Positions 10,444-64,000 of a stretch of 64,000 nucleotides of DNA are shown piece after piece. A program made the position numbers and the translations under genes. Within the stretch, counting starts at the first letter, position 1, and each line of letters opens with the position of its first letter. The notes under the pieces are model-generated. The model saw only the letters and a list, made by a program, of their open reading frames with translations. It did no database searches and was not told the origin of the DNA. This DNA is from Rhodoluna sp. (GTDB taxonomy: Bacteria; Actinomycetota; Actinomycetes; Actinomycetales; Microbacteriaceae), in contig JAIOXP010000002.1 of the NCBI GenBank assembly GCA_021741705.1, positions 7,499 through 71,498 on the forward strand. The letters run 5' to 3'.

Positions 10444-11289
10444 TTACTTCACCGCTTTCCAAGACTTAGATTTTTCAATAACTCTGGCAACCAAATAGAT
10501 TGCAAAAGACAAAGTTGTAACGTACGGGCTAATTGGTAACCCGCCACCAAGGGCTAGCAATATTCCCCCCACTACAGATGCCACGGCAAAGCTAACACTT
10601 AGAACCGGAACCAAAACTGGGGAGGAAGTTAGTCTAAGGGCGGCGGCAGCTGGTGTAACAAGCAAAGTCATTACAAGCAGTGCTCCAACTACCTGAACTG
10701 ATGCCGCTACCGCCAAGGCCAGTAACAACATAAAAACAATTCCAAGAGTCTTGGTAGGGACCGCTCTAGCTTCAGCAACTTCCAGATCCAAGCTGGCAAA
10801 AGATAGTGGTCGCCAGATAACCAGCAAGGCGCTCACCACAACAACAGAGGTGGCGATAAGCCAGAACACTTGCGGGTCATCAACGGCAATGATTTGCCCA
10901 GTAAGCAACCCAAACTTGTTGGCTGCTCTGCCCTCGTAGAGAGCGAGTGCCAAGATGCCAATTCCAAGACCGAACGGCATCAGCACGGCAATGATTGAGT
11001 TTCTATCCTTAGCCCGAGATCCCATGATGGCAATGATGACCGCGGCAACTATCGAGCCAAGTGTTGCACCGAGTGCAATGTTTAGTCCGAATAGTAAAGC
11101 CAGCGCAGCGCCTGCAAAAGACAGTTCGCTGATGCCATGAACTGCAAAGGACATATCTCTTGTCATTACGAAAACACCAATCAGTCCACCCATAAGTCCA
11201 AGTAGTGCGCCGGCAATGAGCGAGTTCTGAACCAGCGGAATTAGCTGATCGTAATCAGAGAAGTCAAAGAGTCTGTCCATTAGATCCAC
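10444..11289 (-). CDS. znuB: Zn/Mn ABC transporter permease
   Basis: ABC-3 permease: HGISELSFAGA, VGALLV..LLVTPAAAA. Confidence 0.9.
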   Translation of the reverse strand: MDLMDRLFDFSDYDQLIPLVQNSLIAGALLGLMGGLIGVFVMTRDMSFAVHGISELSFAGAALALLFGLNIALGATLGSIVAAVIIAIMGSRAKDRNSIIAVLMPFGLGIGILALALYEGRAANKFGLLTGQIIAVDDPQVFWLIATSVVVVSALLVIWRPLSFASLDLEVAEARAVPTKTLGIVFMLLLALAVAASVQVVGALLVMTLLVTPAAAALRLTSSPVLVPVLSVSFAVASVVGGILLALGGGLPISPYVTTLSFAIYLVARVIEKSKSWKAVK

Positions 11290-12086
11290 TTCTCGTTCTC
11301 GTGATGATCGTGATTTGAAGAACCTAAAACCGCAATGCGTCCCTGGTTTCTTACAACATCGACATCCCGGCCGTAAAGCTTTGATAAAACATCAGATCTC
11401 AAAACCTCATCCGGAGTTCCGATTCGGAACTTTCCGTTAGCTAAATACAGCACCCTGTCGATGTAATCAAGTACCGGGTTTACATCATGTGTGACAAACA
11501 ACACCGCAGCGCCACTTAGTTGGCGCTGATTGTTTATTAGTTCTGCAACAACAGACTGCTGCTTTAGATCAAGTGCGCTAAGTGGCTCATCCGCCAAGAT
11601 CAACTTCGGCTTATCGATAACTGCTTGAGCAACTCGAATGCGTTGCAATTGACCACCAGAAAGTTGACCTATTGGAGTGTTCGCAATATCACTTGCTCCA
11701 ACCATTTCTAAAACTTCTGCAATTCGTTTATTGGTTTTTGAAGAAGGCAGCGGCAAACCAAAGCGGTGACCATCTAGTCCCATTCGAAGTAGATCTCTAG
11801 CGCGAAGTGGTAAGCCGCTATCAGCCTGGCGATGTTGGGGGATGTAGCCAACATTTCTGGAGCCGTGACGAACCGGTTCGCCAAATAGTTCAATCGATCC
11901 AGCAGATAAAGCAAGCTGACCCAAAATTGCTTTTAGTAGCACTGTCTTTCCTGAAGCATTCGCTCCAATGACCGCAATGAACTCACCTGGTTTTACGCTC
12001 AGGTCTAGATTGCTCCAAACACTTTTTTCAGCAAAACCAAGGCTTGCGTTTTTGACCTGTAGTACGGCCTCGTTGGAAGAAGTAAT
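11280..12086 (-). CDS. znuC: Zn/Mn ABC transporter ATP-binding protein (probable ATT start)
   Basis: The frame is open to 12086. Walker A GANASGKT lies upstream of the track's GTG. LSGGQ, LADEP and THD motifs present. Confidence 0.85.
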   Translation of the reverse strand: MTSSNEAVLQVKNASLGFAEKSVWSNLDLSVKPGEFIAVIGANASGKTVLLKAILGQLALSAGSIELFGEPVRHGSRNVGYIPQHRQADSGLPLRARDLLRMGLDGHRFGLPLPSSKTNKRIAEVLEMVGASDIANTPIGQLSGGQLQRIRVAQAVIDKPKLILADEPLSALDLKQQSVVAELINNQRQLSGAAVLFVTHDVNPVLDYIDRVLYLANGKFRIGTPDEVLRSDVLSKLYGRDVDVVRNQGRIAVLGSSNHDHHENEKWI

Positions 12087-13021
12087 TACTTTAGACCTGC
12101 CTCAATTGCGGAGATGTTTTGTTCCATCCATGCGAGATAGCCTAAACCTTCAGGCAAAAGCTCGCTCACCTGAATTACTGCTACTCCGTTAGCTTCCGCC
12201 AGTTCAACCAGTGCATCAATCTGAACCGATCCGGTCTGGACATTCACAACGAACAAGTCAACCGAGTTTGTTGAAATCAGATTCTGAATTCCCAGCAGAT
12301 CTGCAGGAGACACATCCAGCTCTTCCTCAATTGCTTGAGAGAAGGACTCGGGCGTGATGTTGGTAAGACCAAGCTCGGCAAGTAGGTAGTCGGCCACTGG
12401 CTCCGATGAAATCACCTTCGCGTCAGAAACCGAACTAGCAACTGCAGCTGCACGTTCTTCGAGAGATTCGATTCCAACTAGAAACTCTTCAAGGTTGGCT
12501 GTGTATTGCGCAGCGTTGTCTGGATCCAAAGTCTTTAGCTGCTCGGCTAGTCGAGATGCAAAATCCTCCACCACGTGGAAGTCGTACCAAACGTGTTCGT
12601 TACCGTGAGCATGATCGTGGTCGTGGTCGCCTTCTTCTGCAGCGTGGTCCTCTTCTTTGCCCTCTTCGGGTAGGTAGGCATAAACAACATTGCTGTTGCC
12701 AGCGGCCTCAGCCAGGGTGTCAATAAACGAGTCATAGCCGCCGCCGTTGGCAACAACTAGATCGGCATCGTTAACAGCCAGTTGATCTCTGGCGGATGCC
12801 TCGTAGGAGTGTGGGTCTTGGGAGAAGCTATCAATTATTGAAACGACCTGAACTAGGTCCCCGCCTACCGAGGAGGCGACATCGCCCCAGACGTTGGTGG
12901 AAGAAACAATCGTTAGCCCGGCAAAGGACTCATCGGTGGCATCTGTGGTCGAATCAGTGGCTGCACAGCCTGCTAGAAGAAGGACCGTGGCGGTGGCTAG
13001 GGCAAGGACTTTAGTTTTCAT
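12086..13021 (-). CDS. znuA: Zn/Mn ABC transporter substrate-binding lipoprotein
   Basis: Lipobox LAGC, DPHSYE, His/acidic loop DHDHDHAH, NEHVWY. Confidence 0.92.
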   Translation of the reverse strand: MKTKVLALATATVLLLAGCAATDSTTDATDESFAGLTIVSSTNVWGDVASSVGGDLVQVVSIIDSFSQDPHSYEASARDQLAVNDADLVVANGGGYDSFIDTLAEAAGNSNVVYAYLPEEGKEEDHAAEEGDHDHDHAHGNEHVWYDFHVVEDFASRLAEQLKTLDPDNAAQYTANLEEFLVGIESLEERAAAVASSVSDAKVISSEPVADYLLAELGLTNITPESFSQAIEEELDVSPADLLGIQNLISTNSVDLFVVNVQTGSVQIDALVELAEANGVAVIQVSELLPEGLGYLAWMEQNISAIEAGLK

Positions 13022-51844: not shown

Positions 51845-51850
51845 CTAGTC

Positions 51851-51884
51851 AAAAAACTCCCTTATGTTTGAAGGGGAGTTTTTT
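51851..51884 (+). terminator. Intrinsic terminator after tRNA-Ala
   Basis: AAAAAACTCCCTT...AAGGGGAGTTTTTT hairpin with U-tract. Confidence 0.85.
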
Positions 51885-51898
51885 ACTTGTGTGGAGAA

Positions 51899-51922
51899 AT
51901 AGTCTGATTTATAGTCTGATTT
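51899..51922 (+). repeat. Perfect tandem 12-bp direct repeat (ATAGTCTGATTT x2)
   Basis: Read directly from the sequence. Confidence 0.8.
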
Positions 51923-52009
51923 TGGTCCCAAAACACCAAACTAGCTGCCACGGACAAAAAATTGCGGGTCAGCGAAAGAAACATAGTATCGTGAAATAGT
52001 GTTTGGCAT

Positions 52010-52885
52010 TTGGCAAATAAAAATATAATTGCCTTCCTGTCCGGGGGACTGGGTAATCAGCTTTTTGTCTATGCGGCTGCGCTCGAACAAGCCGACCGCA
52101 TAGGGGTAAATGTATTGGCGGATGTTTCGTGGTTTTACAGGCAAGACAAGAGGGTGTACCTGCTCGGTCATCTCTTTCCGAATCTCCAAGTAGTTGGAGG
52201 TTCATCGAGGGCCTCAAGAACACTTAGCAAAGCCTCTTCGATTTTGAACCGACTTAGAAAACACTCTGTTTTTGTGGAAAAAGGCTTCTATGAGACAAAA
52301 AACTCCTTTGATGATCGAATTTTTTCGATAACAGAAGGAACAAGGCTTCGCGGGTACTTTCAATCCACTAAGTATTTTCCATCGACAGGAGCTCTAGTCG
52401 CTGAGGCCGTAAGGCAGGCACGGGTGAGTAAAGAGGAACAGAGCACTTTAGACGACATTTGTTCGCGTCCATTTAATGCAATTCACGTCAGGCGCGGTGA
52501 CTACTTTCATAGCCCATCCACTAGAGATTTTCACGGACTCACAACCAAGGAGTATTTCGAAGCGGGGTCAAGACTGTTCGGCAACTCAACCTTGCCTTGC
52601 CTTGTCTTTTCGGATTCCCCACAACTAGCCCGAAAAGAATTGGATGGGGTTGGGAATTTTGTCTTTGATCCCAAAATCTTGGATTTAGGAGAAGTTGCCA
52701 CCCTAAAACTTATGTCCTACGCAAAAGGACTGGTTATTAGTAATTCATCATTTAGTTGGTGGGCCGCCTACACCATTTCCCAACGTGACCCGTGTGCAGT
52801 CATTGTGACTCCAAGGCCATGGTCAAAAAATATTGACTTCAACCACAACCTAATCCATCAAAATTGGATTAACCTCTCAATCTGA
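52010..52885 (+). CDS. Alpha-1,2-fucosyltransferase (GT11)
   Basis: GGLGNQLF, GYFQS, IHVRRGDY, NSSFSWWAA. Confidence 0.93.
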   Translation: MANKNIIAFLSGGLGNQLFVYAAALEQADRIGVNVLADVSWFYRQDKRVYLLGHLFPNLQVVGGSSRASRTLSKASSILNRLRKHSVFVEKGFYETKNSFDDRIFSITEGTRLRGYFQSTKYFPSTGALVAEAVRQARVSKEEQSTLDDICSRPFNAIHVRRGDYFHSPSTRDFHGLTTKEYFEAGSRLFGNSTLPCLVFSDSPQLARKELDGVGNFVFDPKILDLGEVATLKLMSYAKGLVISNSSFSWWAAYTISQRDPCAVIVTPRPWSKNIDFNHNLIHQNWINLSI

Positions 52886-52967
52886 CACCCAAAGCCTCGA
52901 AAGATGGCACTGTCTCACTAGTATTGAAGTAGTTCTCAAAGCATGAAAGCCCTGAAAAGGGAGCCTA

Positions 52968-53040
52968 GCGTTTGTAGCTCAACGGATAGAGCATCTGACT
53001 ACGGATCAGAAGGTTGGGGGTTCGAGTCCCTCCAAGCGCA
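52968..53040 (+). tRNA. tRNA-Arg(ACG)
   Basis: GCGTTTG TAGCTCAACGGATAGAGC A TCTGA-CTACGGA-TCAGA ... GGTTCGAGTCC ... CAAGCGCA; CCA not encoded. Confidence 0.96.
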
Positions 53041-53104
53041 CTTTTAGATCAATACCCCTGATTTTTCGGGGTGTAGAAACTCCAGTGGCTAACTTGCATG
53101 GAAA

Positions 53105-53142
53105 TTGACAACTATTGATAAACAATGTATCGTTTATCAATA
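53105..53142 (+). promoter_or_regulatory. Sigma-70 promoter overlapped by an inverted-repeat operator
   Basis: TTGACA (53105)-17 bp-TATCGT (53128); IR TATTGATAAAC-N8-GTTTATCAATA (53113-53142). Confidence 0.75.
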
Positions 53143-53174
53143 TACATGTTTCGAAAGACCAAAGGAGAAGAATC

Positions 53175-53657
53175 GTGAGGGGATCGGAACGAGCGATACA
53201 AATCGGAACCATTTTGGTAATTGGGGTTTTGATGTTTATAGGACTTCTGGTTTCTGTAGCGGTGCCATTTGTAGCCTCTGGGCTAGTTGACGAATACAGT
53301 GAATACGCAAATGATTTCTGGGTAATTGTAGGAATGCTATTCGCACCAACTATTCTGGCAGAGTCGCTTCTGGTGATTATTCTTGTTCTACTGAGACGCA
53401 TTCGAGTGGATCAAATGTTTTCTAATGCCTCGCACAAGTGGGTAGTTTCACTTTCCTACAACGCTGCTGCTCTTTCGGCTACGTTTGTGGTTATTTTGGT
53501 TTGGTTGAGTATCAAGAACACTCTTCCGCCCGTCATCGCACTGCTTTTGCTGATTGGAATTTTCCTGCCACTGGCAGTGTCGCTGGTAACCAGATCTTTG
53601 CTAGTTCTATTGAAGAGAGCTACGGCGAAATCCGAAGAGTTGGAAGGGGTTGTGTAA
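53175..53657 (+). CDS. DUF2975 membrane protein
   Basis: Four TM helices and a C-terminal A..KSEELEGVV coupled to an HTH gene; GTG after AAGGAG. Confidence 0.8.
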   Translation: MRGSERAIQIGTILVIGVLMFIGLLVSVAVPFVASGLVDEYSEYANDFWVIVGMLFAPTILAESLLVIILVLLRRIRVDQMFSNASHKWVVSLSYNAAALSATFVVILVWLSIKNTLPPVIALLLLIGIFLPLAVSLVTRSLLVLLKRATAKSEELEGVV

Positions 53658-53914
53658 TGCCTATCATCGTAGATTTCGAGGAGCAACGGAACCACAAGGG
53701 ACTTACGGTTTCCCAACTTGCTGATGACGTTGGAATCACTCAAGCAAACCTTTTTGTCCTCAAAAGTAACCGAGCCAAGGCAATCCGCTTCTCAACGCTC
53801 GAGGCTCTCTGCATTGCTTTAGATTGCCAGCCTGGAGATATCTTAAAGTTTGAATCCGATAAGAGAAGAAACAAAGTCAGCATGGCGAAAGAACTCCGCA
53901 GAGAGCAGAAATAG
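53657..53914 (+). CDS. YozG-like Cro/C1 HTH transcriptional regulator
   Basis: LADDVGITQANL..LK.NRAKAIRFSTLEALC.ALDCQPGDIL. Confidence 0.9.
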   Translation: MPIIVDFEEQRNHKGLTVSQLADDVGITQANLFVLKSNRAKAIRFSTLEALCIALDCQPGDILKFESDKRRNKVSMAKELRREQK

Positions 53915-54036
53915 CTTTTGTGCTCTGATGCTTAGTTATCTGACCCTAGAAACAAACTGAATCTCTAGCTATTGCGGCACAACGACCCACTGATACTGAA
54001 TCAGTTGCCCTATTGAGGGAAGAAGATTTTAGGGAA

Positions 54037-54432
54037 TTACAAATTTTTGTAGACAGCTTCAATTTGCCAACCGTCTGGGTCAATGAGATAAGCAGCGTAG
54101 TAGTCTGGTCCGAAATCTGACCAGATCTTAGGCGCTCCCTTGCTTGTGCCACCCATCGCAATGCCTTGCCTGTGCCATTCGTCAACGGCTTCTCTGCTGG
54201 GTGCTGAAAACGCCAAATGAAAACCAGGTCCAGGAGATAACTCAGTTGAGAAACGCTCCTTTATTGTGAACTTATCCTCATTGATTTCAAAGCCATACCC
54301 GATTGCCTGGTGCTTCTCACCTGGACGTAAATCCTCAAAAGCTCGTATGTAGCCCAAAGGCTTCAGAATCGCATCGTAAAAGATGCTGGAGGCTACGATC
54401 TCGGAAACTCCGATGCTTATGTGGTGAATCAT
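54037..54432 (-). CDS. VOC/glyoxalase family protein
   Basis: MIHHISIGV, FYD.IL..LG, HLAF.A.SR..VD, YYAAY..DPDG..IE. Confidence 0.9.
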   Translation of the reverse strand: MIHHISIGVSEIVASSIFYDAILKPLGYIRAFEDLRPGEKHQAIGYGFEINEDKFTIKERFSTELSPGPGFHLAFSAPSREAVDEWHRQGIAMGGTSKGAPKIWSDFGPDYYAAYLIDPDGWQIEAVYKNL

Positions 54433-54463
54433 TCTCCTAGGATACTGAAGGCACAAAGTGGAT

Positions 54464-54565
54464 AAATGTCTGACCATCTGACTAATATTGAGGGTATAAG
54501 AACAAATACTTGACTGGATTGACTACGGATCAGAAGGTTGGGGGTTCGAGTCCCTCCAAGCGCAC
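54464..54565 (+). repeat. 102-bp att-like element, copy B (arm + 3' half of tRNA-Arg)
   Basis: 54520-54568 is identical to 52996-53044 (49 bp). The whole element aligns without gaps to 55529-55630 with 9 mismatches by hand count. Confidence 0.95.
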
Positions 54566-54566
54566 T

Positions 54567-55133
54567 TTACTCCTGAATTATATGTTTAGGCTCACCCTGG
54601 ATCTCAAAGTATCCAATTCTGCCCTTGTCCCTCCCAATAGAGAAGTCAACAAAGTATGAACCGTCATCTCTCCTCGAAATTACGGTCACTTTCCCTAAAC
54701 CATCTTCCCCACCATCCCCATAGAGAACTGTGCCTTCATAGTAGTTTTGATTTGGTGCGGAGCCCAGATTGCGCTCCAGTCCTTCAACACAGAAGTCAAT
54801 TACCTCATTCAAGTCACTAGGCGGAGCTATTTCCGAAGCTCCCTCTGCTGAGTAGGCATCGAGTTCTAACTGGCTTTGAAACTCAATCACGGACGCACAA
54901 ACATCCCTTGCATTTATTGATGACCCTGCAAAGAAATAGACACTATAAAGGGGTTGTTGGCAAGGAATACCGTAGGAGGCACCACAGTTTGGCGCCAGTT
55001 CCTCTGAAAAGAGCTGTAAATGTTCAAAGTTTTTCTGCTGAATCTTTATAGCCATAGGTTCAATTTGAGGCGAGCAGCCCGTAGTGGCTGAAATCGCAAC
55101 AACACAAAGGGCTAACAGGACTGATCTTTTCAT
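54567..55133 (-). CDS. Hypothetical lipoprotein
   Basis: MKRSVLLALCVVAISATTGC signal and lipobox; several Cys; stop abuts repeat B. Confidence 0.7.
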   Translation of the reverse strand: MKRSVLLALCVVAISATTGCSPQIEPMAIKIQQKNFEHLQLFSEELAPNCGASYGIPCQQPLYSVYFFAGSSINARDVCASVIEFQSQLELDAYSAEGASEIAPPSDLNEVIDFCVEGLERNLGSAPNQNYYEGTVLYGDGGEDGLGKVTVISRRDDGSYFVDFSIGRDKGRIGYFEIQGEPKHIIQE

Positions 55134-55182
55134 CGACTCGCTAACTCTCCGATGTGCTTTAGGTTGGCCCACCAATTCAAGT

Positions 55183-55440
55183 TCATGACCTTGGATTCGT
55201 TTTTCTGTATAGATGCCTGGCAAAAGAGATAATCGCAAGGCACACGGCTGCGACTGCTGCAAATATCCAAGCCAATCCCTCACTCATGTGTGACCAATTT
55301 GTGAGGTGAAGCCAAATATTGATTACAGAGAATGCTACAAGACCACCATAAATTGCATAAGTTAGAAACAGGGACCATTTTCTTCGAATGAACGGAAGAG
55401 ATAAAGGGGGTAGGAGCAGCAGAAGTAATAAAACATCCAT
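55183..55440 (-). CDS. Small 3-TM hypothetical membrane protein
   Basis: Hydrophobic helices; SD TAAGGAG upstream. Confidence 0.6.
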   Translation of the reverse strand: MDVLLLLLLLPPLSLPFIRRKWSLFLTYAIYGGLVAFSVINIWLHLTNWSHMSEGLAWIFAAVAAVCLAIISFARHLYRKTNPRS

Positions 55441-55528
55441 TTACACATCTCCTTAGAAGCAAAATCGATTCAGTAGGTCAGGTTAAATACCTTCCTATTT
55501 AAGTAGATAATACGTTTAATTATTTAGG

Positions 55529-55630
55529 AAATGTCTGATCTCCTGACTAATATTGAGGGCATAGAAACTAAGACTTGACTGGATTTACTACGGATCAGAA
55601 GGTTGGGGGTTCGAGTCCCTCCAAGCGCAC
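55529..55630 (+). repeat. 102-bp att-like element, copy C (arm + 3' half of tRNA-Arg)
   Basis: 55587-55630 is identical to 52998-53041 (44 bp); the upstream arm is homologous to copy B. Confidence 0.95.
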
Positions 55631-56069
55631 CTCCACCCACGATATATTAACAAACTTCGTGGGCTCCTCTGTTTCCGCTAGTTTCCGTCCAAGCCAGCTT
55701 AGGTACCTCAGTAAAAAAATTAGAATATCTTCGAACTTGAGCCCCGAGAGTATGACAAGTTTACTAAGTAACCAAATTGCCGCGTGGAATTCATTTCACT
55801 ACACAGAGTGAGACTGCCTTTAGGCAACAACATTTTTGTGGTAATTGGAAATAACGTCGGAGGAGTTAAAAAACACTTGAATTCCTGAGAAACCAAGGGT
55901 CCTGAACAAGAATCGACTCTACAGAAATTGTAATGAGTTTCAGAAGACTCGACCTGCAACTTCCCAAATTGGCAAATCATGTATCCGATTCAAAGTAAAC
56001 ACAGAATCCTAATGTTTGATGAATAGAATTTGTCAATAGCTCACTAGCTGAAGTGATTAGAGTAGGACG

Positions 56070-57602
56070 ATGAAAGTTATTGTTCCAAGTTTTGGGTCAG
56101 GCCGTTATCAAGTTGCGGCTATGAACGCTCGAAAGATTTCGCAACTGCAGATGTCTGTTAATGGTTTTGAATCAACATCCATGCCAAGCAGTACATACAA
56201 GGCTGACGCTTTCTTACATAAATTTGAGATCTGGAAGCAAGCTCTTGTGGGCAATAATGAAGAAATCTTTGTGCATCTTGATGCAGATGCTTCGTTTACG
56301 GGTAGTTTTTCCTCTGAAATATTGGAGCGCGACCTGGGTCAACGCTCAATAGGTATGGTCGAGCAGCCGCAAATTCTTGGGAGCAATCCACGAAGTCGAA
56401 GAGATTTGTATGAGCACTACCTAAAGGTCGCTCATGCAGCTGTTTCTCCGTTGTCACAGAAACCAAATTTTCAGAGCTTTAGGTTCTTCAACACAGGCTT
56501 TGTGGTGTTTAGAAGACGAGCATTAGAAAACTTTCTATCTTGGGTAGAAGAAAAAATCCCATCAGTACCTCGAGAAATTGATGGGCGCATGGTTGCAGAT
56601 CAGGACCTGATGCAGGTTTACGCAAATGAAGTAGCTCCCGATGAAGTTATGCAGCTGGATTGGAGTTGGAATCACTGCGAATGGTGGGACGAGAGCTTTC
56701 CTAATCCTCACGCCAAGGTCATCCACATGTCGAATTTCTGCAACGGACCTTTAGCCTCGCAGATGAATCGAAGAGCAGTTCTTTGCCGAGCTACCCAGGG
56801 AAGGAGCTTTGGAAATTTGACCGTAGTACTTGTTATTCACAACTCGAGTGCTGTGATTAACGAGTGCTTAGGTGCTCTTTTAGAAATTCCTGACCTTCAG
56901 ATTCTCCTCGTCGACAATGCATCTACAGAAGCTCTGGACTTACCAAAAAGCGAGCGCATAAGACTTATTCGGAACACCAAAAACCTGGGTTTCTCAAAAG
57001 CGGTGAATCTAGGAATTGATGAGGTTTGCACAAGATACATCTGTCTCTTGAATCCGGATGCTTTTCTGACATACGAGGCAGCCGAAGAAGCAATAATCCA
57101 GCTTGAGCTAGATGCAAACCAGCTTTTGGCTCCTGACTTTTATGATGCTTCTGGAAACCTAACCCAAGCATTGCGAAACGGACAACCGCTACACCAGCTA
57201 ATTAAAGACATTATTCCGGAAAGTCACAAACTTCGCAGGAAAATGTTGTTAACCCTTATCCCCGACAGGTTCGGGGAGGATTTCAAGTGGCTTATTGGAG
57301 CATGTGTTTTCTCAACAAAGGATTTCCTGCTTGGGATAGGTGGATTAGATGAAAGCTACTTTCTCTACATGGAGGATGTCGAGCTAGGAAAAGCTGCGTC
57401 AGCTAAAGGCAAAGTGAGCAGCATTGACTCCGCAATTGAACATCTAGGTTCTATGAGCACAGATAGAGCCCCAAATTTCAAATCGCAAGAACTTGCTGGA
57501 GCAAGACTTAAGTTTCTTAGACGACACTTTGGCATTTATCCATGGCTTTTTACATTGCTGGTGTCGGGTTATCTGTTTAGAACAAAGATAAAAAGAGGTT
57601 AG
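56070..57602 (+). CDS. Two-domain glycosyltransferase (GT8-like/GT-A + GT2)
   Basis: N-half HLDAD, FNTG, ADQD, WN, IH; C-half VDNAS, NLGFSKAVN, LLNPD, YFLYMEDV. Confidence 0.82.
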   Translation: MKVIVPSFGSGRYQVAAMNARKISQLQMSVNGFESTSMPSSTYKADAFLHKFEIWKQALVGNNEEIFVHLDADASFTGSFSSEILERDLGQRSIGMVEQPQILGSNPRSRRDLYEHYLKVAHAAVSPLSQKPNFQSFRFFNTGFVVFRRRALENFLSWVEEKIPSVPREIDGRMVADQDLMQVYANEVAPDEVMQLDWSWNHCEWWDESFPNPHAKVIHMSNFCNGPLASQMNRRAVLCRATQGRSFGNLTVVLVIHNSSAVINECLGALLEIPDLQILLVDNASTEALDLPKSERIRLIRNTKNLGFSKAVNLGIDEVCTRYICLLNPDAFLTYEAAEEAIIQLELDANQLLAPDFYDASGNLTQALRNGQPLHQLIKDIIPESHKLRRKMLLTLIPDRFGEDFKWLIGACVFSTKDFLLGIGGLDESYFLYMEDVELGKAASAKGKVSSIDSAIEHLGSMSTDRAPNFKSQELAGARLKFLRRHFGIYPWLFTLLVSGYLFRTKIKRG

Positions 57603-57606
57603 ATCC

Positions 57607-58473
57607 GTGCTCTATTACTTTCTACCTCAACCGACAATTCATGGAGGAATCAAGGTGGGATTCCAATTCGCATCGATCCTTGGAAAAATTGGAGCCGAGG
57701 TGGTGATGGTGACACCAAATGGTGCTGCTCCAAATTGGTTTCCAAGCAACCTAACGGTACTAAGACGTGAACGAGTCCTTCCCACTTTGTCAAAAACAGA
57801 TAAAGTACTTTTCTCTCACCCCCGCGACTACAGGGACCTAGAGAAAACAGGTGCCAAATTGATTCTTCACTGTCAGGGAACCGATGAAAGTATCCTACCG
57901 ATTCTTGAAGACAAGAAGGTCGGTCTTCTGGCTTGTTGGGAGCAGGCAGAAGTTTTCTTTCAAGAGCATTCGCGGCAAGGAGAGAATGTCGGTATTTCAA
58001 TTTCGGAAGTTTTCTTCTATAACGGTCAATTAAAAAAGCCCGGGAGTTACTCCATAATGCCTAGGCGTGGGACTCTACACCACGAGGAAAAGCTGGATCG
58101 CTTTGAAAAAAGAGTAATTGACAATTGCACTGAGAAAGAAACTGGAGAAATACTCAAATCCGTGAGTGGCTTTATTGCGCTAGTTGAGAATGAGGGCTTT
58201 GGCCTTCCAGCCCTAGAAGCGATGGCAGCTGGTTGTCTAGTTGTTAGCCCGAGAACAATCGGCGGCCGAGAATATCTCATGCATGGTAGCAACTGTCTAG
58301 TTTCGGAAGTCCAAGACCTAAGCGGGACAATGGCAGAACTCCTCAGCTCGGAATCAAAGCACGAAGAATTAAGACTCGCAGCCCTTAGAACGGCATCTGC
58401 CTATCACCCAAGATCTCAGTTGGGTCACTTGAGAAGAAAACTAAAGTCAGGGGGCTTAAAGTGGCTTCTCTAA
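57607..58473 (+). CDS. GT4-like glycosyltransferase
   Basis: HGGIKV, EGFGLPALEAMAAGC. Confidence 0.85.
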   Translation: MLYYFLPQPTIHGGIKVGFQFASILGKIGAEVVMVTPNGAAPNWFPSNLTVLRRERVLPTLSKTDKVLFSHPRDYRDLEKTGAKLILHCQGTDESILPILEDKKVGLLACWEQAEVFFQEHSRQGENVGISISEVFFYNGQLKKPGSYSIMPRRGTLHHEEKLDRFEKRVIDNCTEKETGEILKSVSGFIALVENEGFGLPALEAMAAGCLVVSPRTIGGREYLMHGSNCLVSEVQDLSGTMAELLSSESKHEELRLAALRTASAYHPRSQLGHLRRKLKSGGLKWLL

Positions 58474-59222
58474 AAATTGGCATTGTGATGCTGGCAAGGG
58501 ACATGCATTCAATGACACAAACATCCGTCACTGCTCTGGAGAAAGCCCTATCCTATGCGGGTTTACTGAAATATTCGAAGTTAGTGCTTGTTGATAATTC
58601 GTCTCTCAAACCTTATCGGCCCGAACATCTGAATACTAATCTTTCGCTCAGAATCGTTCGGCTCGACAGGAGCCATTCGTTTTCAGCCGCCTCAAATTGG
58701 GGAGCATCCAAACTAAGCGATTCAGATATGTTGCTTTTCTTGAACAACGATGTCTTTCTCAACCCCAGAGCGTTAGAGGCGATGATCCATGATAAAAAGG
58801 AGCTTAACGCGGAAGTTTGTGGATTAAGGCTTGTTTACCCGAATGGAAACATTCAACACATGGGTGTTGGATTTGCCCCAAGCACGACAATCCCTCATCA
58901 TTTGAATCATTACGAACCCTCCAGTCTTCATGCTCGAGTAAGCGGATATTGCCAATCCATCACGGGCGCAGTAATGCTAATTGATTCAGAGTTATTCTTG
59001 GACCTCGAAGGGTTTGATGAAATGTTCTCCTTTTGCTACGAAGATACCGACCTGTGTCTTCGAGCAGGGGCTATAGGCAAGAGAGTAATTTGCTCCCAGA
59101 CAGTGGACTCCATCCATCTTGAAGGACAGACCAGGGACGAAAAATCCATGAGATATCAAAACCTGTCAGCCGAGATATTCTTCGCTAGGTGGGGCGGTCG
59201 CGTTTCATCTCTGAGAGCTTGA
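58461..59222 (+). CDS. GT2 glycosyltransferase
   Basis: VDNSS, FSAASN, LFLNND, IQHMG, TGAVM, EDTDLCLR. Confidence 0.87.
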   Translation: MASLKIGIVMLARDMHSMTQTSVTALEKALSYAGLLKYSKLVLVDNSSLKPYRPEHLNTNLSLRIVRLDRSHSFSAASNWGASKLSDSDMLLFLNNDVFLNPRALEAMIHDKKELNAEVCGLRLVYPNGNIQHMGVGFAPSTTIPHHLNHYEPSSLHARVSGYCQSITGAVMLIDSELFLDLEGFDEMFSFCYEDTDLCLRAGAIGKRVICSQTVDSIHLEGQTRDEKSMRYQNLSAEIFFARWGGRVSSLRA

Positions 59223-59232
59223 AAGGAAAAGA

Positions 59233-60207
59233 ATGAACTCCATTGAAAAATTGACGCTCCTGGTTCATACTCATGATTCAATCGATCGCATTCAACCCTT
59301 GATTGAAACAACGGATTGGATCCCTAATCGGATTGCGATTGATATGCAAAGTAAAGACGGCACGGCAGAGACACTAGCTGAAGCGGGCTTTGAGGTCATT
59401 GCCATTGAACCCCAGATCTTCTCCGATGAGTTGAGAAACTCTTATCTTTCATTACCTAAAACACCTTGGACTCTAGTTTTGGATAGCGACGAGTACTTAG
59501 CGGATGATGCTAGCGAGCAAATCAGCCAGCTTATTGACGCAGCTGATGCAGGTGTAGTGGGTTTTCGGATACCTCGTCACAACTACATTATGGGAAGAAA
59601 GTTCACCGGCTCTGGATGGTACCCCGATCATCAGCTGAGGCTATTTAAATCCAATCAGGTGCACTATCAAAAAGGGCATCATTTACCACCACTTCCAAAG
59701 AACTCAAATGAAAATGTAGTTGTCTTGGAGGCCCCTAGTTGTCTTCACATCCACCACAATAACTACTCCACGATTGCCGAAATGCTTTCTCGGCAACTTC
59801 ACTACACCACTACAGATATATACGACTCAGCCCCAGACTCATTTGATTTTGATGATTACATGCTTTCGGCCATCAGAGAATTCAACAAGAGAAATGACTT
59901 TCAAGACGATGGTCAATTTTCATATGTCGCCGGAATGGTCATGTACTGGAATGAGATAAATCGAGGACTCATTCACTGGGAAAAAACCGGATATCAAGGT
60001 CGTCTAACAACTCATCTACCAAACCAAGTTTTTCTGTCAAATGAATTCGACACATTGAGACGTGAAATTGACCGCCTAAACAACAGAGACCGTGTAGACC
60101 TAGAGACAGTCCATAACGAGTATCGAAAGTCAAACTCATGGAAACTTACTGCACCATTTAGACGATTAAGCAAGATGATTACTGATATGCGCGGAAACAT
60201 GAATTGA
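59233..60207 (+). CDS. GT2 glycosyltransferase (beta-1,4-glucosyltransferase-like) with C-terminal coiled coil
   Basis: D..S.DGT, VLDSDE, GWYPDHQLRLF, C-terminal SWKLTAPFR. Confidence 0.82.
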   Translation: MNSIEKLTLLVHTHDSIDRIQPLIETTDWIPNRIAIDMQSKDGTAETLAEAGFEVIAIEPQIFSDELRNSYLSLPKTPWTLVLDSDEYLADDASEQISQLIDAADAGVVGFRIPRHNYIMGRKFTGSGWYPDHQLRLFKSNQVHYQKGHHLPPLPKNSNENVVVLEAPSCLHIHHNNYSTIAEMLSRQLHYTTTDIYDSAPDSFDFDDYMLSAIREFNKRNDFQDDGQFSYVAGMVMYWNEINRGLIHWEKTGYQGRLTTHLPNQVFLSNEFDTLRREIDRLNNRDRVDLETVHNEYRKSNSWKLTAPFRRLSKMITDMRGNMN

Positions 60208-61232
60208 AAGCTGCCATTGTTCAGGAAACTTCAATCGATCCTGAAAGAGATGCGGGCGCCCGTGCCATCAAAGATTTGGCTGACTCATTTACGAGAATTG
60301 GGTTTGAAACGATTCTCTTAGTAGACAACCCGAACCTAGAAGATGCGCTAACTAAATTCAGTGCCGACGTGATTATTGTCAGCCAACCAAGCACAATGAT
60401 TCGGGCTCGGAATTTTAGAACTGACTTTAATGTACCTGTGGTGTATTGGGCTCAAGACCTCCACGCAAAGCGCATGAGTTTAGGAGAGGGTGTTGAAGGA
60501 GCATCGGCCAGCGGTTCATTGGCGATGAGCTTGAAAGAGCAGCTGGCAATTTCATCGGCAGATTTGGCAGTGTTTCCAACAAAAGAGGATTCAGACGCTG
60601 CCCGCAGGAAATACTCTGTCTCGAATCTAGAACAGCATCAATACTTCTCTATTGGATCTTCACTGCCTATCCATGAACCAAAAAGGGAAGACACTTTGGT
60701 CTTTATAGGCGGCCCAGCGCACCTCCCTAACTTGGATGGACTTAGGTGGTTTTTGAAAGATTGCTGGCCGCTAATTCAGGATAAGGAGAAGTCGGTAAAG
60801 CTCCAAATCATCGGATCATGGCAAGATTCTGAGATTTATAAACAATTCCACGACGGTGTAGCGTTTACTGGTCAGTTAGCCGAGGATGAAGTCAGGGACG
60901 TTATGAGAAATAGTTTAATTGGAATTTCACCACTGAGGTTTGGTGCTGGTATGAAGCGAAAAACACTCCAGTATCTCGAATACGGCCTGGCGCTGCTCTC
61001 TACGGATTTTGGCTTGCAAGGATTACCTAGAAGTCAAGACAATAAATCGTGGTTAAGAGCAAACACCAAGATTGATTTCGTTGATGCCACCATCCGACTA
61101 ATTCAAAAACCCGAAACAACGAAAGAAATGGCAAAATCAGGTAACGAATTTGTGAAAAAGTCCTTCTCGGAGGAAGCTTTTGATTTGGGATTAGAGCGAA
61201 TACTCACCAAAGTGAACGTTCTAAGACCTTAG
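60204..61232 (+). CDS. GT4-like glycosyltransferase
   Basis: RDAG, FIGG..H.PN.DG..WF, PLRFGAGMK.K. Confidence 0.85.
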   Translation: MKAAIVQETSIDPERDAGARAIKDLADSFTRIGFETILLVDNPNLEDALTKFSADVIIVSQPSTMIRARNFRTDFNVPVVYWAQDLHAKRMSLGEGVEGASASGSLAMSLKEQLAISSADLAVFPTKEDSDAARRKYSVSNLEQHQYFSIGSSLPIHEPKREDTLVFIGGPAHLPNLDGLRWFLKDCWPLIQDKEKSVKLQIIGSWQDSEIYKQFHDGVAFTGQLAEDEVRDVMRNSLIGISPLRFGAGMKRKTLQYLEYGLALLSTDFGLQGLPRSQDNKSWLRANTKIDFVDATIRLIQKPETTKEMAKSGNEFVKKSFSEEAFDLGLERILTKVNVLRP

Positions 61233-61680
61233 GTTCTTAGCCCAAATAATGTTTTTGCTGAGTTTCGACGGACCTTTTGAGTGTTTGGTCGATAGGCGGT
61301 AAATCCCTGAGGCTTTCGAACGCGCTATAAATTTTGACTAGCTCCAGAAATGTCAGTTCACCCATGAAATCAATACTCGGTACACCAAATACGACACGCT
61401 GTGACCGTTGAGCGTGACCACGTCCTGTCTAGTAACTCATGGAAGATAAATAAGGGTCTAAGCAAGGTAATCCATGTTCAGAGGTTCCTAAAAGCAAAGA
61501 TTTAGATCAGGAAAGCTTGAATATAGAAGTTGTTCTTTAGAAAAGCCCTTTATCCACCAATCTGCAGCACAGCCGAAATTCTGGAACCACCTCGATTAGC
61601 AAAACACAAGGCGGGAACACCGGAGATTAAGCAAACCAAAGCCTTTGGCAAATGCATAGGTCGGTGTAGCTGGTCTTTCA

Positions 61681-61724
61681 GTTTACCTTTCATTAACCTT
61701 TGTTATTCCTGCCATTAACTTTGC
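61681..61724 (+). promoter_or_regulatory. PHO box (11-bp direct-repeat units) upstream of pstC
   Basis: GTTTACC 61681, ATTAACC 61692, (TTATTCC 61703), ATTAACT 61714 at exact 11-bp spacing; TAGTTT -10 element 6 nt before GTG. Confidence 0.7.
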
Positions 61725-61741
61725 CTAGGTAGTTTTGGGCT

Positions 61742-62785
61742 GTGAAAACCGTGTCTACTTTGCCAAAAGCGGAAGGTAAAGGGTCCTCTAACCCTTCATT
61801 ACTGAACTCCGCTACGGACAGTCCTCGCGACATAAGTCATGTTTATGACAATGCAGATCAGTTGTTTAGAGTCATTCTTAGGGCTGGCGGAGTTGCGGTT
61901 TTGGCAATCATGGCACTTGTGGGCTTTTTCCTTGGCTTACGAGCCTTTCAGGCATTGTCACTTTCAGGCTTTAAGTTTTTTACAACGCAAGCCTGGGAAC
62001 CTGACTCAGGAAACTTTGGCATTGTCGCAATTCTTTTCGGCACTGTTGTTATTGCTGTAATTGCAGTGCTTGTGGCTGTTCCCCTATCACTTGCTACCTC
62101 TCTATATATCTCGGAGTACGCACCCCCTGGTCTTGCCCGGGGTTTAGTAACCCTTGTCGACCTAATGGCGGCAATTCCTTCGGTTGTGTTTGGACTTTGG
62201 GGCGTCTTCTTTCTCCAACCCCAACTAACTCCAATATCAAAATGGATCTCGCAAAATTTCAGCTGGATACCTATTTTTTCTGTTGATGGATCAGACCCGA
62301 ACGACCCACTCACGTCAAATACAGTCTTTACTTCTTCAAGTTTTATAGCGGGTGTGGTCGTGGGCCTAATGATTACTCCCGTGGTTACTTCCGTTATGAG
62401 GGAAGTTTTTTCTCAGGCACCAATAGGTGAAAGAGAAGCAGCTCTGGGTCTTGGGGCCACACGCTGGGGAATGATAAGAAATGTAGTTTTGCCGTTCGGG
62501 AAGGGCGGAATAATTGGGGCAACAATGCTTGGCCTTGGCAGGGCCCTAGGGGAAACAATTGCGGTTTACATGATTATTTCGCCAGTTTTTGAAATTCAAT
62601 GGCACATCCTTCAAAATGGAGCAATCTCAGTAAGCTCTCTAATTGCGCTTCGGTATGGGGAGGCAACCCAGTTTGGAATGTCAGCCTTAATGGCGGCGGG
62701 ACTTGCCCTTTTCGCTATGACATTAGTTGTGAATTTCGCTGCCGCAACCATCGTTTCTAGATCCAGATCGGGGGCTGCGAGTTGA
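61742..62785 (+). CDS. pstC: Phosphate ABC transporter permease PstC
   Basis: LMAAIPSVVFGLWG, REAALGLGATRW, LGLGRALGETIA. Confidence 0.93.
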   Translation: MKTVSTLPKAEGKGSSNPSLLNSATDSPRDISHVYDNADQLFRVILRAGGVAVLAIMALVGFFLGLRAFQALSLSGFKFFTTQAWEPDSGNFGIVAILFGTVVIAVIAVLVAVPLSLATSLYISEYAPPGLARGLVTLVDLMAAIPSVVFGLWGVFFLQPQLTPISKWISQNFSWIPIFSVDGSDPNDPLTSNTVFTSSSFIAGVVVGLMITPVVTSVMREVFSQAPIGEREAALGLGATRWGMIRNVVLPFGKGGIIGATMLGLGRALGETIAVYMIISPVFEIQWHILQNGAISVSSLIALRYGEATQFGMSALMAAGLALFAMTLVVNFAAATIVSRSRSGAAS

Positions 62786-63966
62786 CCCCTATTAAGAAGA
62801 GCAAGAATGAACCTACTGACTCAAAGGTGAAGGAATCTATTGACGAATTTGAAGAGCGAAGAGCAGTCAAGGGTCTGCGTGTTCGTGATTGGTTGTATTT
62901 TCTAGGAGCCGGTCTCGGAGCGGTTTCGAGCACTGCTTTCTTGTTCGGTCAAATCTTACCTTTTTCAGGGGCAATCCCATTCGTACTTATAAGTTACGTA
63001 TTGTTTCTTGTTTACTTCGCAATCTTGGTTTCTCTCGACGATAATGGCCAGGCAGTGGCTGATCGAATGGTTTCTATCACCGTGAATTCCCTTGCCTTAT
63101 TAGTCTTTGTAACGTTAGTTTTCATTGTTGTTTTCACTGTGGGTCGTGGCAGCACCGCACTCGCTAACTGGAACTTCATTTCTCAAGATATGTCCCTTGC
63201 AGGACCTCTTGATCCCCTTACGGACGGGGGAATTACCCATGCCATTGTTGGATCGTTGACTCAGATAGCAATTGCTCTTGCCGTAACTGTTCCACTAGGG
63301 CTGATAACCGCTGTCTACTTGAATGAGATTCAATCAAAATTGTCGAGATTTGTTCGCACAATTGTTGAGGCAATGACAGCCTTACCTTCGATAGTCGCCG
63401 GGCTATTTATTTATGCAACGGCGATTTTAGTGCTAGGCATTCAGAAGTCCGGGTTGGCAGCCGCATTAGCAATCAGCGTAATGATGCTGCCAATTATGAT
63501 TCGCGCCTCGGATGTGGTCCTTAGGTTAGTCCCATCGACACTTAAGGAAGCATCTCTGGGCCTTGGGGCAAGCAATTTCAAGACTACGATGATGGTCACC
63601 CTTCCAACCGCTAGATCGGGTCTAACAACTGCAATAATCCTGGCAACCGCAAGGGGTGTGGGTGAAACATCCCCAGTGCTCCTAACTTCTGGCTTCACTG
63701 CTGCCTTGAATCTAGACCCACTCCAAGGTCCGATGATTTCCCTCCCACTTGCCATATTTGAATTCGTTAAGTCTCCAGAACCCACGATGATAGCCAGGGG
63801 CTTCGGAACTGCAGCAGTTCTAATGTTGCTTGTCTTGGTCCTCTTCGCCTTAGCCAGGTTGCTAGGAAGTAACGCCAGGCCTTTCCATCAATTGCGAATT
63901 CAGCTAAACAAACTAGTAAGAATAATCAAGACATTCACAGCGACACTCAAGAAGGAAGCAAAATGA
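62782..63966 (+). CDS. pstA: Phosphate ABC transporter permease PstA
   Basis: GGI.HAIVGS, LPSIVAGLF, LKEASLGLGA, ARGVGETSP. Confidence 0.93.
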   Translation: MTPIKKSKNEPTDSKVKESIDEFEERRAVKGLRVRDWLYFLGAGLGAVSSTAFLFGQILPFSGAIPFVLISYVLFLVYFAILVSLDDNGQAVADRMVSITVNSLALLVFVTLVFIVVFTVGRGSTALANWNFISQDMSLAGPLDPLTDGGITHAIVGSLTQIAIALAVTVPLGLITAVYLNEIQSKLSRFVRTIVEAMTALPSIVAGLFIYATAILVLGIQKSGLAAALAISVMMLPIMIRASDVVLRLVPSTLKEASLGLGASNFKTTMMVTLPTARSGLTTAIILATARGVGETSPVLLTSGFTAALNLDPLQGPMISLPLAIFEFVKSPEPTMIARGFGTAAVLMLLVLVLFALARLLGSNARPFHQLRIQLNKLVRIIKTFTATLKKEAK

Positions 63967-64000
63967 CGCCGAAAAGATCCCAGCGACCTGTATCAATATT
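63963..64000 (+). CDS. Next gene of the pst operon, N-terminal fragment
   Basis: ATGA overlap with the pstA stop and AAGGAAG upstream; MTPKRSQRPVSI runs off the window. Confidence 0.5.
   Translation, partial: MTPKRSQRPVSI

What the first reader, a model, noticed from the sequence alone, without database searches (positions are those of the whole stretch)
52968..55630. Integrase-less, tRNA-Arg-anchored array of ~1-1.5 kb gene cassettes separated by a conserved 102-bp att-like element
Seen: intact tRNA-Arg(ACG) is followed by two direct repeats of its 3' half (54520-54568, 49 bp identical; 55587-55630, 44 bp identical). In both, identity starts at the anticodon loop (CTACGGA); the 5' anticodon stem TCTGA is replaced by ATTGA or ATTTA. 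Each fragment is preceded by the same ~56-bp non-tRNA arm (AAATGTCTGA-N4-CTGACTAATATTGAGGG...ACTTGACTGGATT), and the two 102-bp elements differ at only 9 positions with no gaps. Between them sit unrelated cargo genes: DUF2975/HTH/VOC, then a lipoprotein and a membrane protein whose stop abuts the repeat. Established: tyrosine integrases often cross over in tRNA anticodon loops and leave a P-arm plus 3' tRNA fragment at the distal end. Inference: these units are too small to encode a recombinase and none is in the window. A shared but diverged arm with different cargo points to a family of non-autonomous mini-cassettes stacked one by one at the tRNA by an integrase acting in trans, i.e. an integron-like system that uses a tRNA as its insertion site.
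Basis: partly seen in the sequence, partly recalled or inferred. Interest (0 to 1): 0.88.

Follow-up and report, generated by a model that had tools for sequence, protein, structure and literature searches.

The report
tRNA-stacked mini-elements of a minimal integrase
Behind one arginine tRNA gene of a freshwater actinobacterium lie integrase-less gene blocks that end in the same attachment arm and likely derive from a small mobile element with a 254-residue integrase, which likely also swaps single-gene modules between this tRNA and a lysine tRNA.

Summary
In detail: two 102-bp arm + tRNA-3' elements follow tRNA-Arg(ACG). A third copy closes an 18-kb block just beyond the window. The arm occurs in 13 distinct copies in Rhodoluna genomes and metagenome contigs, each with different upstream DNA and none with an integrase in view. 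The first 45 bp after the tRNA are identical to the left end of an element in relative G062 that encodes a 254-aa tyrosine integrase without an arm-binding domain. A 90%-identical integrase sits at tRNA-Lys(CTT) in G142, and the Lys and Arg right arms are co-linear. Both tRNAs, and an internal box at 53984-54010, have the form CTGA-N7-TCAG. The window's VOC module (92% identical) also lies in a tRNA-Lys array, bounded by these sites. This genome carries an inversion that ends at such a site. Best reading: non-autonomous derivatives of that element, stacked in trans, with secondary shuffling at internal sites. It is not an integron: no IntI and no attC hairpin. One loss event crossed over outside the core, and no circles were shown. 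tRNA accretion is known; the minimal two-tRNA integrase and box-bounded module exchange were not found in print.

The parts
52968..53041 (+). Intact tRNA-Arg(ACG), the target. Half-sites at 52989-52998 and 53006-53015 flank the 7-nt anticodon-loop overlap CTACGGA (52999-53005).
   Evidence: half-site reading inferred
53042..53086 (+). Left end of the element, cut short after 45 bp. Identical to the left end of the integrase-bearing element in G062.
   Evidence: 45 of 45 identical; 82-90% to L059, L083 and L074; runs into the integrase-type continuation in contigs of X4, X6 and X9
53115..53657 (+). Cargo: DUF2975 membrane protein
   Evidence: PF11188, E 6e-14
53657..53914 (+). Cargo: Cro/C1-type HTH regulator
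   Evidence: PF13443, E 5e-17
53984..54010 (+). Internal box GACCCACTGA-TACTGAA-TCAGTTGCCC: an inverted look-alike of the tRNA anticodon arm and the left boundary of the VOC module
   Evidence: 9 pattern hits in 8 of 183 genus genomes against 2 control hits, 8 of 9 in tRNA-Arg or tRNA-Lys units; homology to G007 starts here; contig joins at 53993 and 53999
54037..54477 (-). Cargo: VOC/glyoxalase protein (ORF as listed; the true start is probably further downstream)
   Evidence: PF00903; module 464/507 identical to the one in the G007 tRNA-Lys array
54464..54522 (+). Right arm, copy 1 (59 bp). Inner half-site GACCATCTGA at 54472-54481. TACTTGACTGGA at 54507-54518 is the inverted repeat of a 12-mer in the full left end.
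54523..54565 (+). Overlap plus 3' half of tRNA-Arg, copy 1
54567..55133 (-). Cargo of unit 2: predicted lipoprotein of 188 aa; its stop abuts repeat 1
   Evidence: no Pfam family; the lipobox reading is from my own knowledge
55183..55440 (-). Cargo of unit 2: small hydrophobic ORF (85 aa)
   Evidence: no Pfam family
55529..55587 (+). Right arm, copy 2
55588..55630 (+). Overlap plus 3' half of tRNA-Arg, copy 2
55631..64000 (+). Start of unit 3 (18,037 bp in all; glycosyltransferases and a phosphate-transport cluster). It ends beyond the window at a degenerate third arm copy, G000:C22:7889-7978.
   Evidence: no integrase similarity in it

Best explanation
The blocks are integrase-less units that share their ends with a small integrative element found in relatives, and they were likely stacked at the tRNA-Arg anticodon loop by that element's 254-aa tyrosine integrase acting in trans, which likely also recombines look-alike sites inside the units. 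Shown: the shared arm, the identical left end, the integrase gene directly behind that left end at tRNA-Arg (G062) and at tRNA-Lys (G142), co-linear Arg and Lys arms, the same VOC module at both tRNAs, and a box-bounded inversion in this genome. Inferred mechanism: (1) The enzyme has only core-binding and catalytic domains and binds a 10-bp half-site (about RACCWWCTGA); tRNA-Arg(ACG) and tRNA-Lys(CTT) both offer CTGA-N7-TCAG. (2) Each integration restores the tRNA and leaves arm + 3' half at the far end, so repeated events build the array. (3) Extra half-sites in the arm and in front of the integrase gene probably help build the attP complex, but they sometimes serve as crossover sites. The half-site in front of the gene has the ribosome-binding region as its 7-nt spacer, so a crossover there removes or flips the integrase and leaves a non-autonomous unit. 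(4) Spacers differ between sites, so strand exchange probably tolerates mismatched overlaps, which lets one- or two-gene modules move between arrays. (5) Units are also lost by recombination between the tRNA repeats.
For: Arm: 15 copies, 13 distinct, with a sharp 5' edge and unrelated upstream DNA; none has an integrase in the DNA held. Left end: 45/45 identical to G062, where the integrase start follows AACCTACTGA-TTGGAAG; L059 and the window have this left end and the arm on one unit; a 12-bp inverted repeat links left end and arm. Integrase: PF00589 + SAM_3; R128, K156, H192, R195, H218 and Y228 invariant in 63 aligned sequences; median length 252.5 aa among the best 120 homologues, 1 of 120 with an N-terminal extension over 30 aa; model pLDDT 87, best fold match the arm-less fragment of the Tn1549 integrase, E 3e-10. 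Second target: a 90%-identical integrase behind tRNA-Lys in G142; 4 Lys arms and 4 Arg arms compared are all 76 nt and align without gaps. Module exchange: VOC module 464/507 identical at tRNA-Lys in G007, starting at the box and ending in the arm's inner half-site; in X4 and X6 the DUF2975-HTH and VOC pieces are present and VOC runs into a Lys-type arm; in X7 VOC is joined to the rsmD-end site. Crossover at the pre-integrase site: in G000:C25 a block of about 5.9 kb lies inverted relative to 3 relatives, bounded by that site and a tRNA-Lys right half, with the first 74 bp from the integrase start region flipped to the far junction (79/87 identical to G142). Sister system at the same tRNA: arm B occurs on 3 elements with 406-417-aa integrases and on 3 complete units without one.
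Against: No recombination assay and no circle or empty site of these units was shown; only contigs were laid. The right ends of the G062 and G142 elements are not assembled, so the pairing of integrase and arm A rests on the shared left end. G062 itself had no arm-A match. Units 2 and 3 have no recognisable left end or box. The loss of a 510-bp unit (L053 vs C22) crossed over in the T-arm region, not at the anticodon core. VOC and DUF2975 homologues (69-82% DNA identity) also lie at tRNA-Ser islands and elsewhere without these boxes. At rsmD, 9 of 10 relatives are empty and show no half-site, and the insert begins at the outer edge of the half-site, which a core crossover does not explain. The G007, X6 and X7 module junctions show a 4-nt offset from the best half-site. 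The half-site consensus was drawn from the same sites it scores. The integrase is intact in only 2 of 183 genus genomes and was not found in G000, which is 80% complete.
Confidence: 0.7

Rival explanations
1. The units are passive decay products (CIME-type) of larger integrase-bearing islands. Cargo is exchanged by homologous recombination or slippage at the tRNA repeats and short shared arm sequence, and the internal boxes are only binding sites.
For: The L053/C22 loss crossed over in the shared tRNA 3' half. Integrase remnants exist in G153 and in G000:C25. Unit 3 is 18 kb. Cargo homologues travel without boxes. CIME formation and accretion are described in PMC5704250 (passages).
Against: Module edges fall at the box and at the arm's inner half-site in G007 and in contigs of X4, X6 and X7. 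The C25 inversion ends at a 7-nt spacer where the two sites share only about 16 bp with mismatches. The arms stay 85-98% alike and of constant length across unrelated cargo, which suggests continued use.
Confidence: 0.17
2. This is a dedicated integron-like system: the site in front of the integrase is an attI equivalent, and single-gene cassettes bounded by boxes are inserted there one by one, with the tRNA serving only as the platform's anchor.
For: G007 has tRNA-Lys, box, VOC, hybrid box, SMR gene, arm. Boxes precede single genes (LysE, APH, VOC) in several genomes. G142 has an internal box between two restriction modules behind the integrase.
Against: In both integrase-bearing elements the gene follows the site directly, and no element shows cassettes between the site and a retained integrase. 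There is no attC-like fold and the enzyme is not IntI. Most units carry at most one box.
Confidence: 0.09
3. Host XerC/D moves the modules, as with pdif modules or phages that exploit Xer.
For: The only tyrosine recombinase found in G000 is Xer-like.
Against: The sites have 7-nt spacers centred on tRNA anticodon loops, not the 11-6-11 dif layout (dif layout recalled). The same ends flank a dedicated integrase gene.
Confidence: 0.03
4. The array is an assembly artefact of a metagenome-assembled genome at a tRNA repeat.
For: No single contig laid spans the whole array.
Against: The two arms differ at 9 positions. Each unit is a contig of its own in X1, and unit 2 also in X4 and X7. Arm arrays occur in G007, L053 and L059.
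Confidence: 0.01

Closest known systems
CIMEs and tandem accretion at att sites (ICESt1/ICESt3 model; review PMC5704250, passages read)
   Same: Units that keep att ends but lack integration genes, stacked at one target by later integrations; related integrase-bearing elements exist.
   Different: There is no conjugation module. The parent is a small element with an arm-less integrase. Sibling elements use two different tRNAs. Modules appear to move through internal tRNA-like boxes.
tRNA-targeted genomic islands (Islander principle, PMC4383910, passages); tycheposon-built islands of Prochlorococcus (bioRxiv 10.1101/2020.12.28.424599, passages); additive islands of Methylopumilus (PMC10872708, passages)
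   Same: Intact tRNA, anticodon-centred crossover, displaced 3' fragments marking successive insertions, and a streamlined aquatic host.
   Different: Islander requires an integrase and at least 2 kb per island, so units 1 and 2 would be rejected. The passages read describe no conserved non-tRNA arms, no internal boxes and no exchange between tRNA arrays.
Simple (arm-less) tyrosine integrases such as the Brujita integrase (PMC8138268, passages; Lunt and Hatfull 2016 seen only as a title in that reference list, details recalled)
   Same: Core-binding plus catalytic domain only; integrates a mobile element in Actinobacteria.
   Different: Only 22% identical over 178 aa and rank 27 in the fold search; 254 vs 318 aa; no phage context found.
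Tn916/Tn1549-type integrases (PMC5871717, passages)
   Same: Best fold match. They recombine ends with non-matching 5-7-nt crossover regions, as the varied spacers here would require.
   Different: Those have an arm-binding domain, an excisionase and conjugation genes, and they insert at many sites. Here identity is under 20% and the targets are tRNA anticodon arms.
Integrons (IntI, attI, attC; defining features recalled)
   Same: Rows of one- or two-gene accessory modules with repeated boundary sites.
   Different: No IntI, no single-strand hairpin sites, and no retained integrase beside an array.

Membership tests
Integron | Integron integrase IntI | tested here: not met
   TIGR02249 38.7 bits vs cut-off 265 for the 254-aa protein; the only recombinase found in G000 is Xer-like
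Integron | attC sites that fold as single-strand hairpins | tested here: not met
   102-nt elements z 0.07 to 1.07 on both strands; box region z -0.95 and -1.35
Integron | Integrase and attI next to the cassette array | tested here: not met
   No integrase in the window or in unit 3; the two integrase-bearing elements have no cassette between site and gene
Integron | Cassettes excise as circles and reorder | not testable with these tools
   Only contigs could be laid
tRNA-targeted tyrosine-integrase island | Intact tRNA plus displaced 3' fragment in direct orientation, starting at the anticodon loop | tested here: met
tRNA-targeted tyrosine-integrase island | Own integrase gene | tested here: not met
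   met only by the relatives in G062 and G142
CIME / non-autonomous integrative element | att ends kept, integration and transfer genes absent | tested here: met
   Unit 1 has both ends; units 2 and 3 have the right end only
CIME / non-autonomous integrative element | Related autonomous element with the same ends | tested here: inconclusive
   Left end identical to G062; right ends of the G062 and G142 elements not assembled
CIME / non-autonomous integrative element | Mobilised in cis by a conjugative element | not testable with these tools
   No conjugation genes were noticed in the ORF lists of the loci; they were not searched for by profile
Simple (arm-less) tyrosine recombinase | Core-binding + catalytic domain, no arm-binding domain, catalytic residues intact | tested here: met
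   the homologue search covered only proteins of 139-445 aa
IntBrujita subgroup | Sequence clustering with the Brujita integrase | tested here: inconclusive
   22% identity, pairwise E 2e-5; no tree was built
Tn916-like homology-independent recombination | Strand exchange with mismatched crossover regions | not testable with these tools
   Spacer variety and the C25 inversion fit this, but it needs an assay
Tycheposon | Hallmark integration and replication genes of the Prochlorococcus family | not tested
   No profiles at hand; the G062 element carries an HTH_36 protein and G142 a GNAT protein and restriction genes
XerC/D-dif modules | 28-bp dif-like sites with a 6-bp spacer | tested here: not met
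   Spacers are 7 nt between CTGA and TCAG; judged by eye against the recalled dif layout

The most novel reading that the evidence does not exclude
A minimal arm-less integrase recognises the CTGA-N7-TCAG anticodon arm shared by tRNA-Arg(ACG), tRNA-Lys(CTT) and perhaps tRNA-Tyr, ignores the 7-nt spacer, and uses copies of this site inside its elements as cassette boundaries. This would make a double-strand, hairpin-free cassette-shuffling network that spans several chromosomal sites and can delete or flip its own integrase gene at the ribosome-binding site.
Probability: 0.3. Interest if true: 0.85.

Novelty: new variant of a known kind. Interest (0 to 1): 0.64.

Why it matters
Streamlined freshwater bacteria have small genomes and few mobile elements, yet strains differ by small accessory genes. 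This locus links such gene-sized differences to one identifiable enzyme and defined short sites, so the question of how additive tRNA islands gain single genes becomes directly testable. Units this small and without an integrase fall outside island finders that require both (PMC4383910). A 254-aa integrase that may serve two tRNA targets with different spacers is also of mechanistic and possible tool interest. The family is large in metagenomes (1,913 hits at E <= 0.001, the best 120 at 56-99% identity), and no close relative was found among phages (best 29%).

Tried and rejected
Viral collections: the arm patterns gave 0 hits; 0 of 67 hits to a 15-mer carry the arm's end; no integrase relative was confirmed. 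Wider family: the junction pattern matched 0 of 400 other genomes drawn, and the integrase profile matched 0 of 60 order-level genomes at E <= 1e-60. RNA or hairpin role of the arm: no Rfam family above the gathering score besides the tRNA, and folding no better than shuffles. Pre-existing secondary attB at rsmD: rejected, because 9 of 10 relatives lack the half-site. Circle evidence: the 'goes back' joint in X4 (55473 to 54472) is explained by an arm variant in a repeat-bounded contig and was not counted. Depth differences in X1 (17.3 vs 12.8) were not used. The unseen upstream parts of L056-L059 could not be searched for integrases. Xer/dif reading: rejected on site layout. One box hit (G030) lies in unrelated DNA and is probably chance. 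The G075 arm hit (25 nt, E 0.005) was left out of the counts. The Brujita paper is not held. Earlier-finding look-ups by place and by sequence were empty.
Full report
Observation. The window comes from an 80%-complete, 1.08-Mb genome (G000) in the same genus as G007, whose record title names Rhodoluna sp.. tRNA-Arg(ACG) lies at 52968-53041. Two 102-bp elements (54464-54565, 55529-55630) differ at 9 positions and hold the tRNA's 3' part from the anticodon loop on. A third, degenerate copy is at C22:7889-7978. C22 overlaps the end of the window's contig by 139 bp, so a third unit of 18,037 bp follows (glycosyltransferases, phosphate transport). The only PF00589 match in G000 is Xer-like and lies at a contig end. 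In run X1, possibly the source, units 1 and 2 are separate contigs that end in the tRNA repeat. X4 and X7 hold unit 2 without the window's flanks. The units are real; their order rests on the assembly.

The arm is a family. A genus search found it in G000, G007 and G163 of 183 genomes, plus a weak 25-nt hit that I left out. An exact-pattern scan found 8 metagenome loci. The junction pattern matched 0 of 400 other family genomes drawn, and viral contigs gave nothing. Clustering gave 15 copies, 13 distinct (L052 = L058; C22 = first copy in L053). Similarity stops about 60-70 bp before the core, and the upstream DNA differs. No integrase was found in the DNA held around any copy, but six of these loci are short contigs or lack a visible left end, so larger parents are not excluded. 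In five of the distinct arm copies the match to the tRNA breaks at position 42-53 and unrelated DNA follows (L052/L058, L054, L057, the middle L059 copy) or a single change follows (L147). This is near the outer edge of the 10-bp right half-site. The tRNA is a general hotspot: of 97 genus regions that I chose for flank length, 94 had the intact tRNA, 61 had at least 5 kb downstream, and 16 of those 61 carry a repeat. A second arm family (B, 127 bp) pairs 3 elements with 406-417-aa integrases with 3 complete integrase-less units, one of which (L092) shares both ends.

The likely integrase. The 45 bp after the window's tRNA are identical to those after tRNA-Arg in G062. There they continue through TCCAGTCAAGTA, the inverted repeat of TACTTGACTGGA in the arm, to AACCTACTGA-TTGGAAG and the start of a 254-aa tyrosine integrase. 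The window's left end breaks off inside that 12-mer. L059 has this left end and arm A on one 1.4-kb unit. Contigs in X4, X6 and X9 continue the left end into the integrase-type sequence, and X7 into the L059 type. The integrase is intact in 2 of 183 genus genomes. The second, in G142, is 90% identical and sits behind tRNA-Lys(CTT), after GACCTACTGA-TAAGGAG, where the spacer reads as the ribosome-binding site (the reading is mine). The best 120 homologues are 192-299 aa long (median 252.5), and 1 has an N-terminal extension over 30 aa (search limited to 139-445 aa). Six catalytic residues are invariant in 63 aligned sequences. The model (pLDDT 87) matches the arm-less fragments of the Tn1549 and lambda integrases best. 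It is not IntI, XerC or XerD and is 22% identical to the Brujita integrase. The right ends of both integrase-bearing elements lie beyond their contigs, so the link to arm A is an inference.

Two tRNAs, one site grammar. Both tRNAs have CTGA-N7-TCAG in the anticodon arm. Four Lys-type right arms and four Arg-type arms are each 76 nt from the shared start to the outer edge of the right half-site and align without gaps. A box of the same form lies at window 53984-54010. Its pattern hit 9 sites in 8 of 183 genomes against 2 control hits. Six follow a tRNA-Lys end, two are in tRNA-Arg units and one is unrelated. Read backwards, the box resembles the tRNA anticodon arm. A scan of G000 gave 13 strand hits at 8 places against 0-2 in 5 shuffles, and 6 of the 8 are tRNAs or element boxes. 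The consensus came from these sites, so this test is circular. Spacers vary widely among boxes.

Module exchange. The VOC module is 464/507 identical to one in G007's tRNA-Lys array. The match starts at the box and ends in the arm's inner half-site, where G007 continues into a second box, an SMR gene and a Lys arm. In X4 and X6 (two studies) VOC runs into a Lys-type arm after 54489; in X4 one contig also holds DUF2975-HTH. In X7 VOC is joined to the sequence found at the rsmD end in G000 and G093. The letters just inside these joins are not shown, so the exact crossover cannot be placed, and three junctions are offset by 4 nt from the best half-site. The clearest trace is in G000 itself. Behind tRNA-Lys on C25, a block of about 5.9 kb is inverted relative to G064, G062 and G009. 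It begins at the pre-integrase site and ends with the flipped start of the integrase gene (79/87 identical to G142), joined across a 7-nt spacer to a tRNA-Lys right half. The two sites share about 16 bp with mismatches, which fits site-specific better than homologous recombination (inference).

Results against. L053 carries a 510-bp unit that C22 lacks. The C22 site is a hybrid that switches 3' of the anticodon arm, so this loss was not a core excision. Units 2 and 3 have no left end or box. VOC and DUF2975 homologues also occur at tRNA-Ser islands or elsewhere without boxes. At rsmD, 9 of 10 relatives are empty and lack the half-site, and the insert starts at the half-site's outer edge; this is unexplained. 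No circle was shown.

Comparison. Accretion of integrase-less units at att sites (CIMEs; PMC5704250, passages), tRNA-fragment islands (PMC4383910; tycheposon preprint; PMC10872708; all passages only) and simple integrases (PMC8138268, passages) are known. Spacer-tolerant exchange is known for Tn1549 (PMC5871717, passages). This scan's index holds 20 findings with the same key words, 8 of them shown (unchecked AI notes), so the outward pattern is common. Eight literature searches showed no description of this element, its integrase or its boxes in Rhodoluna. The library lacks most subscription papers, and I read no supplements; island tables there could list these loci.

Verdict. A real, non-autonomous, tRNA-stacked element family with a likely cognate minimal integrase (confidence 0.7). 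It works like CIME accretion with an added, cassette-like exchange at internal tRNA-like sites, and it is not a member of the integrons. New variant of a known kind; interest 0.64.

Noticed in passing
G000:C25:7247-13414 (L265): tRNA-Lys(CTT) with the sibling left end, and a block of about 5.9 kb (ugd, DedA, SGNH, PhoH; names read from sequence) inverted between the pre-integrase site and a tRNA-Lys right half, with a flipped 5' remnant of the integrase.
   Followed up: yes
G000:C7:about 11000-12640 (L264); G093 L269: An insert of about 1.66 kb at the rsmD 3' end begins with a half-site and a tRNA-Lys 3' half. G093 has other cargo in the first slot, and 9 of 10 relatives are empty. Its spacers resemble the tRNA-Tyr anticodon loop.
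   Followed up: partly
L035, L036, L038, L092, L109, L139, L059: Second arm family (B) at tRNA-Arg with ATTCCGTTT-type repeats at both ends: three elements with an integrase and primase/helicase-like genes, and integrase-less derivatives carrying beta-oxidation, copper-oxidase or heme-synthesis genes (names read from sequence).
   Followed up: partly
G000:C45:1721-6500, C39:336-7792, C40:63-660, C34:8927-8954: Other tRNA-fragment arrays in the same genome: Ser(GGA) with three 22-24-nt repeats, Arg(TCT) with one 45-nt repeat, and a 28-nt tRNA-Tyr fragment. Shared arms were not evident by eye.
   Followed up: no
L282, L283, L285 (G140, G027, G035): VOC and DUF2975 homologues lie near tRNA-Ser(GGA) genes or fragments, beside a tandem TTTCTACGCCA repeat: probably another mini-element family.
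   Followed up: no
L033 (G014), L124 (G173), L146 (G104): Whole or 5' copies of tRNA-Arg duplicated together with upstream DNA, a different route to tandem islands.
   Followed up: no
window 51850-52960 and relatives G007, G093, G139, G140: The DNA between tRNA-Ala and tRNA-Arg also varies (about 1 kb here, 4.5-5.3 kb from gyrA to tRNA-Arg in these relatives), so the tRNA sits inside a variable surface-polysaccharide region.
   Followed up: no
L074 / L256 (G153:C45): A degenerate copy of the left end and a frameshifted start of the 254-aa integrase lie 1.7 kb downstream of tRNA-Arg.
   Followed up: partly
L054: A unit of about 0.5 kb flanked by a box and by arm A joined to an inverted copy of the box's left half-site, possibly another inversion-type product.
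   Followed up: no
window 61742-64000 and G000:C22:1-6336: Phosphate-transport cluster with several long PstS-like proteins and a sortase-like gene inside unit 3 (names read from sequence).
   Followed up: no
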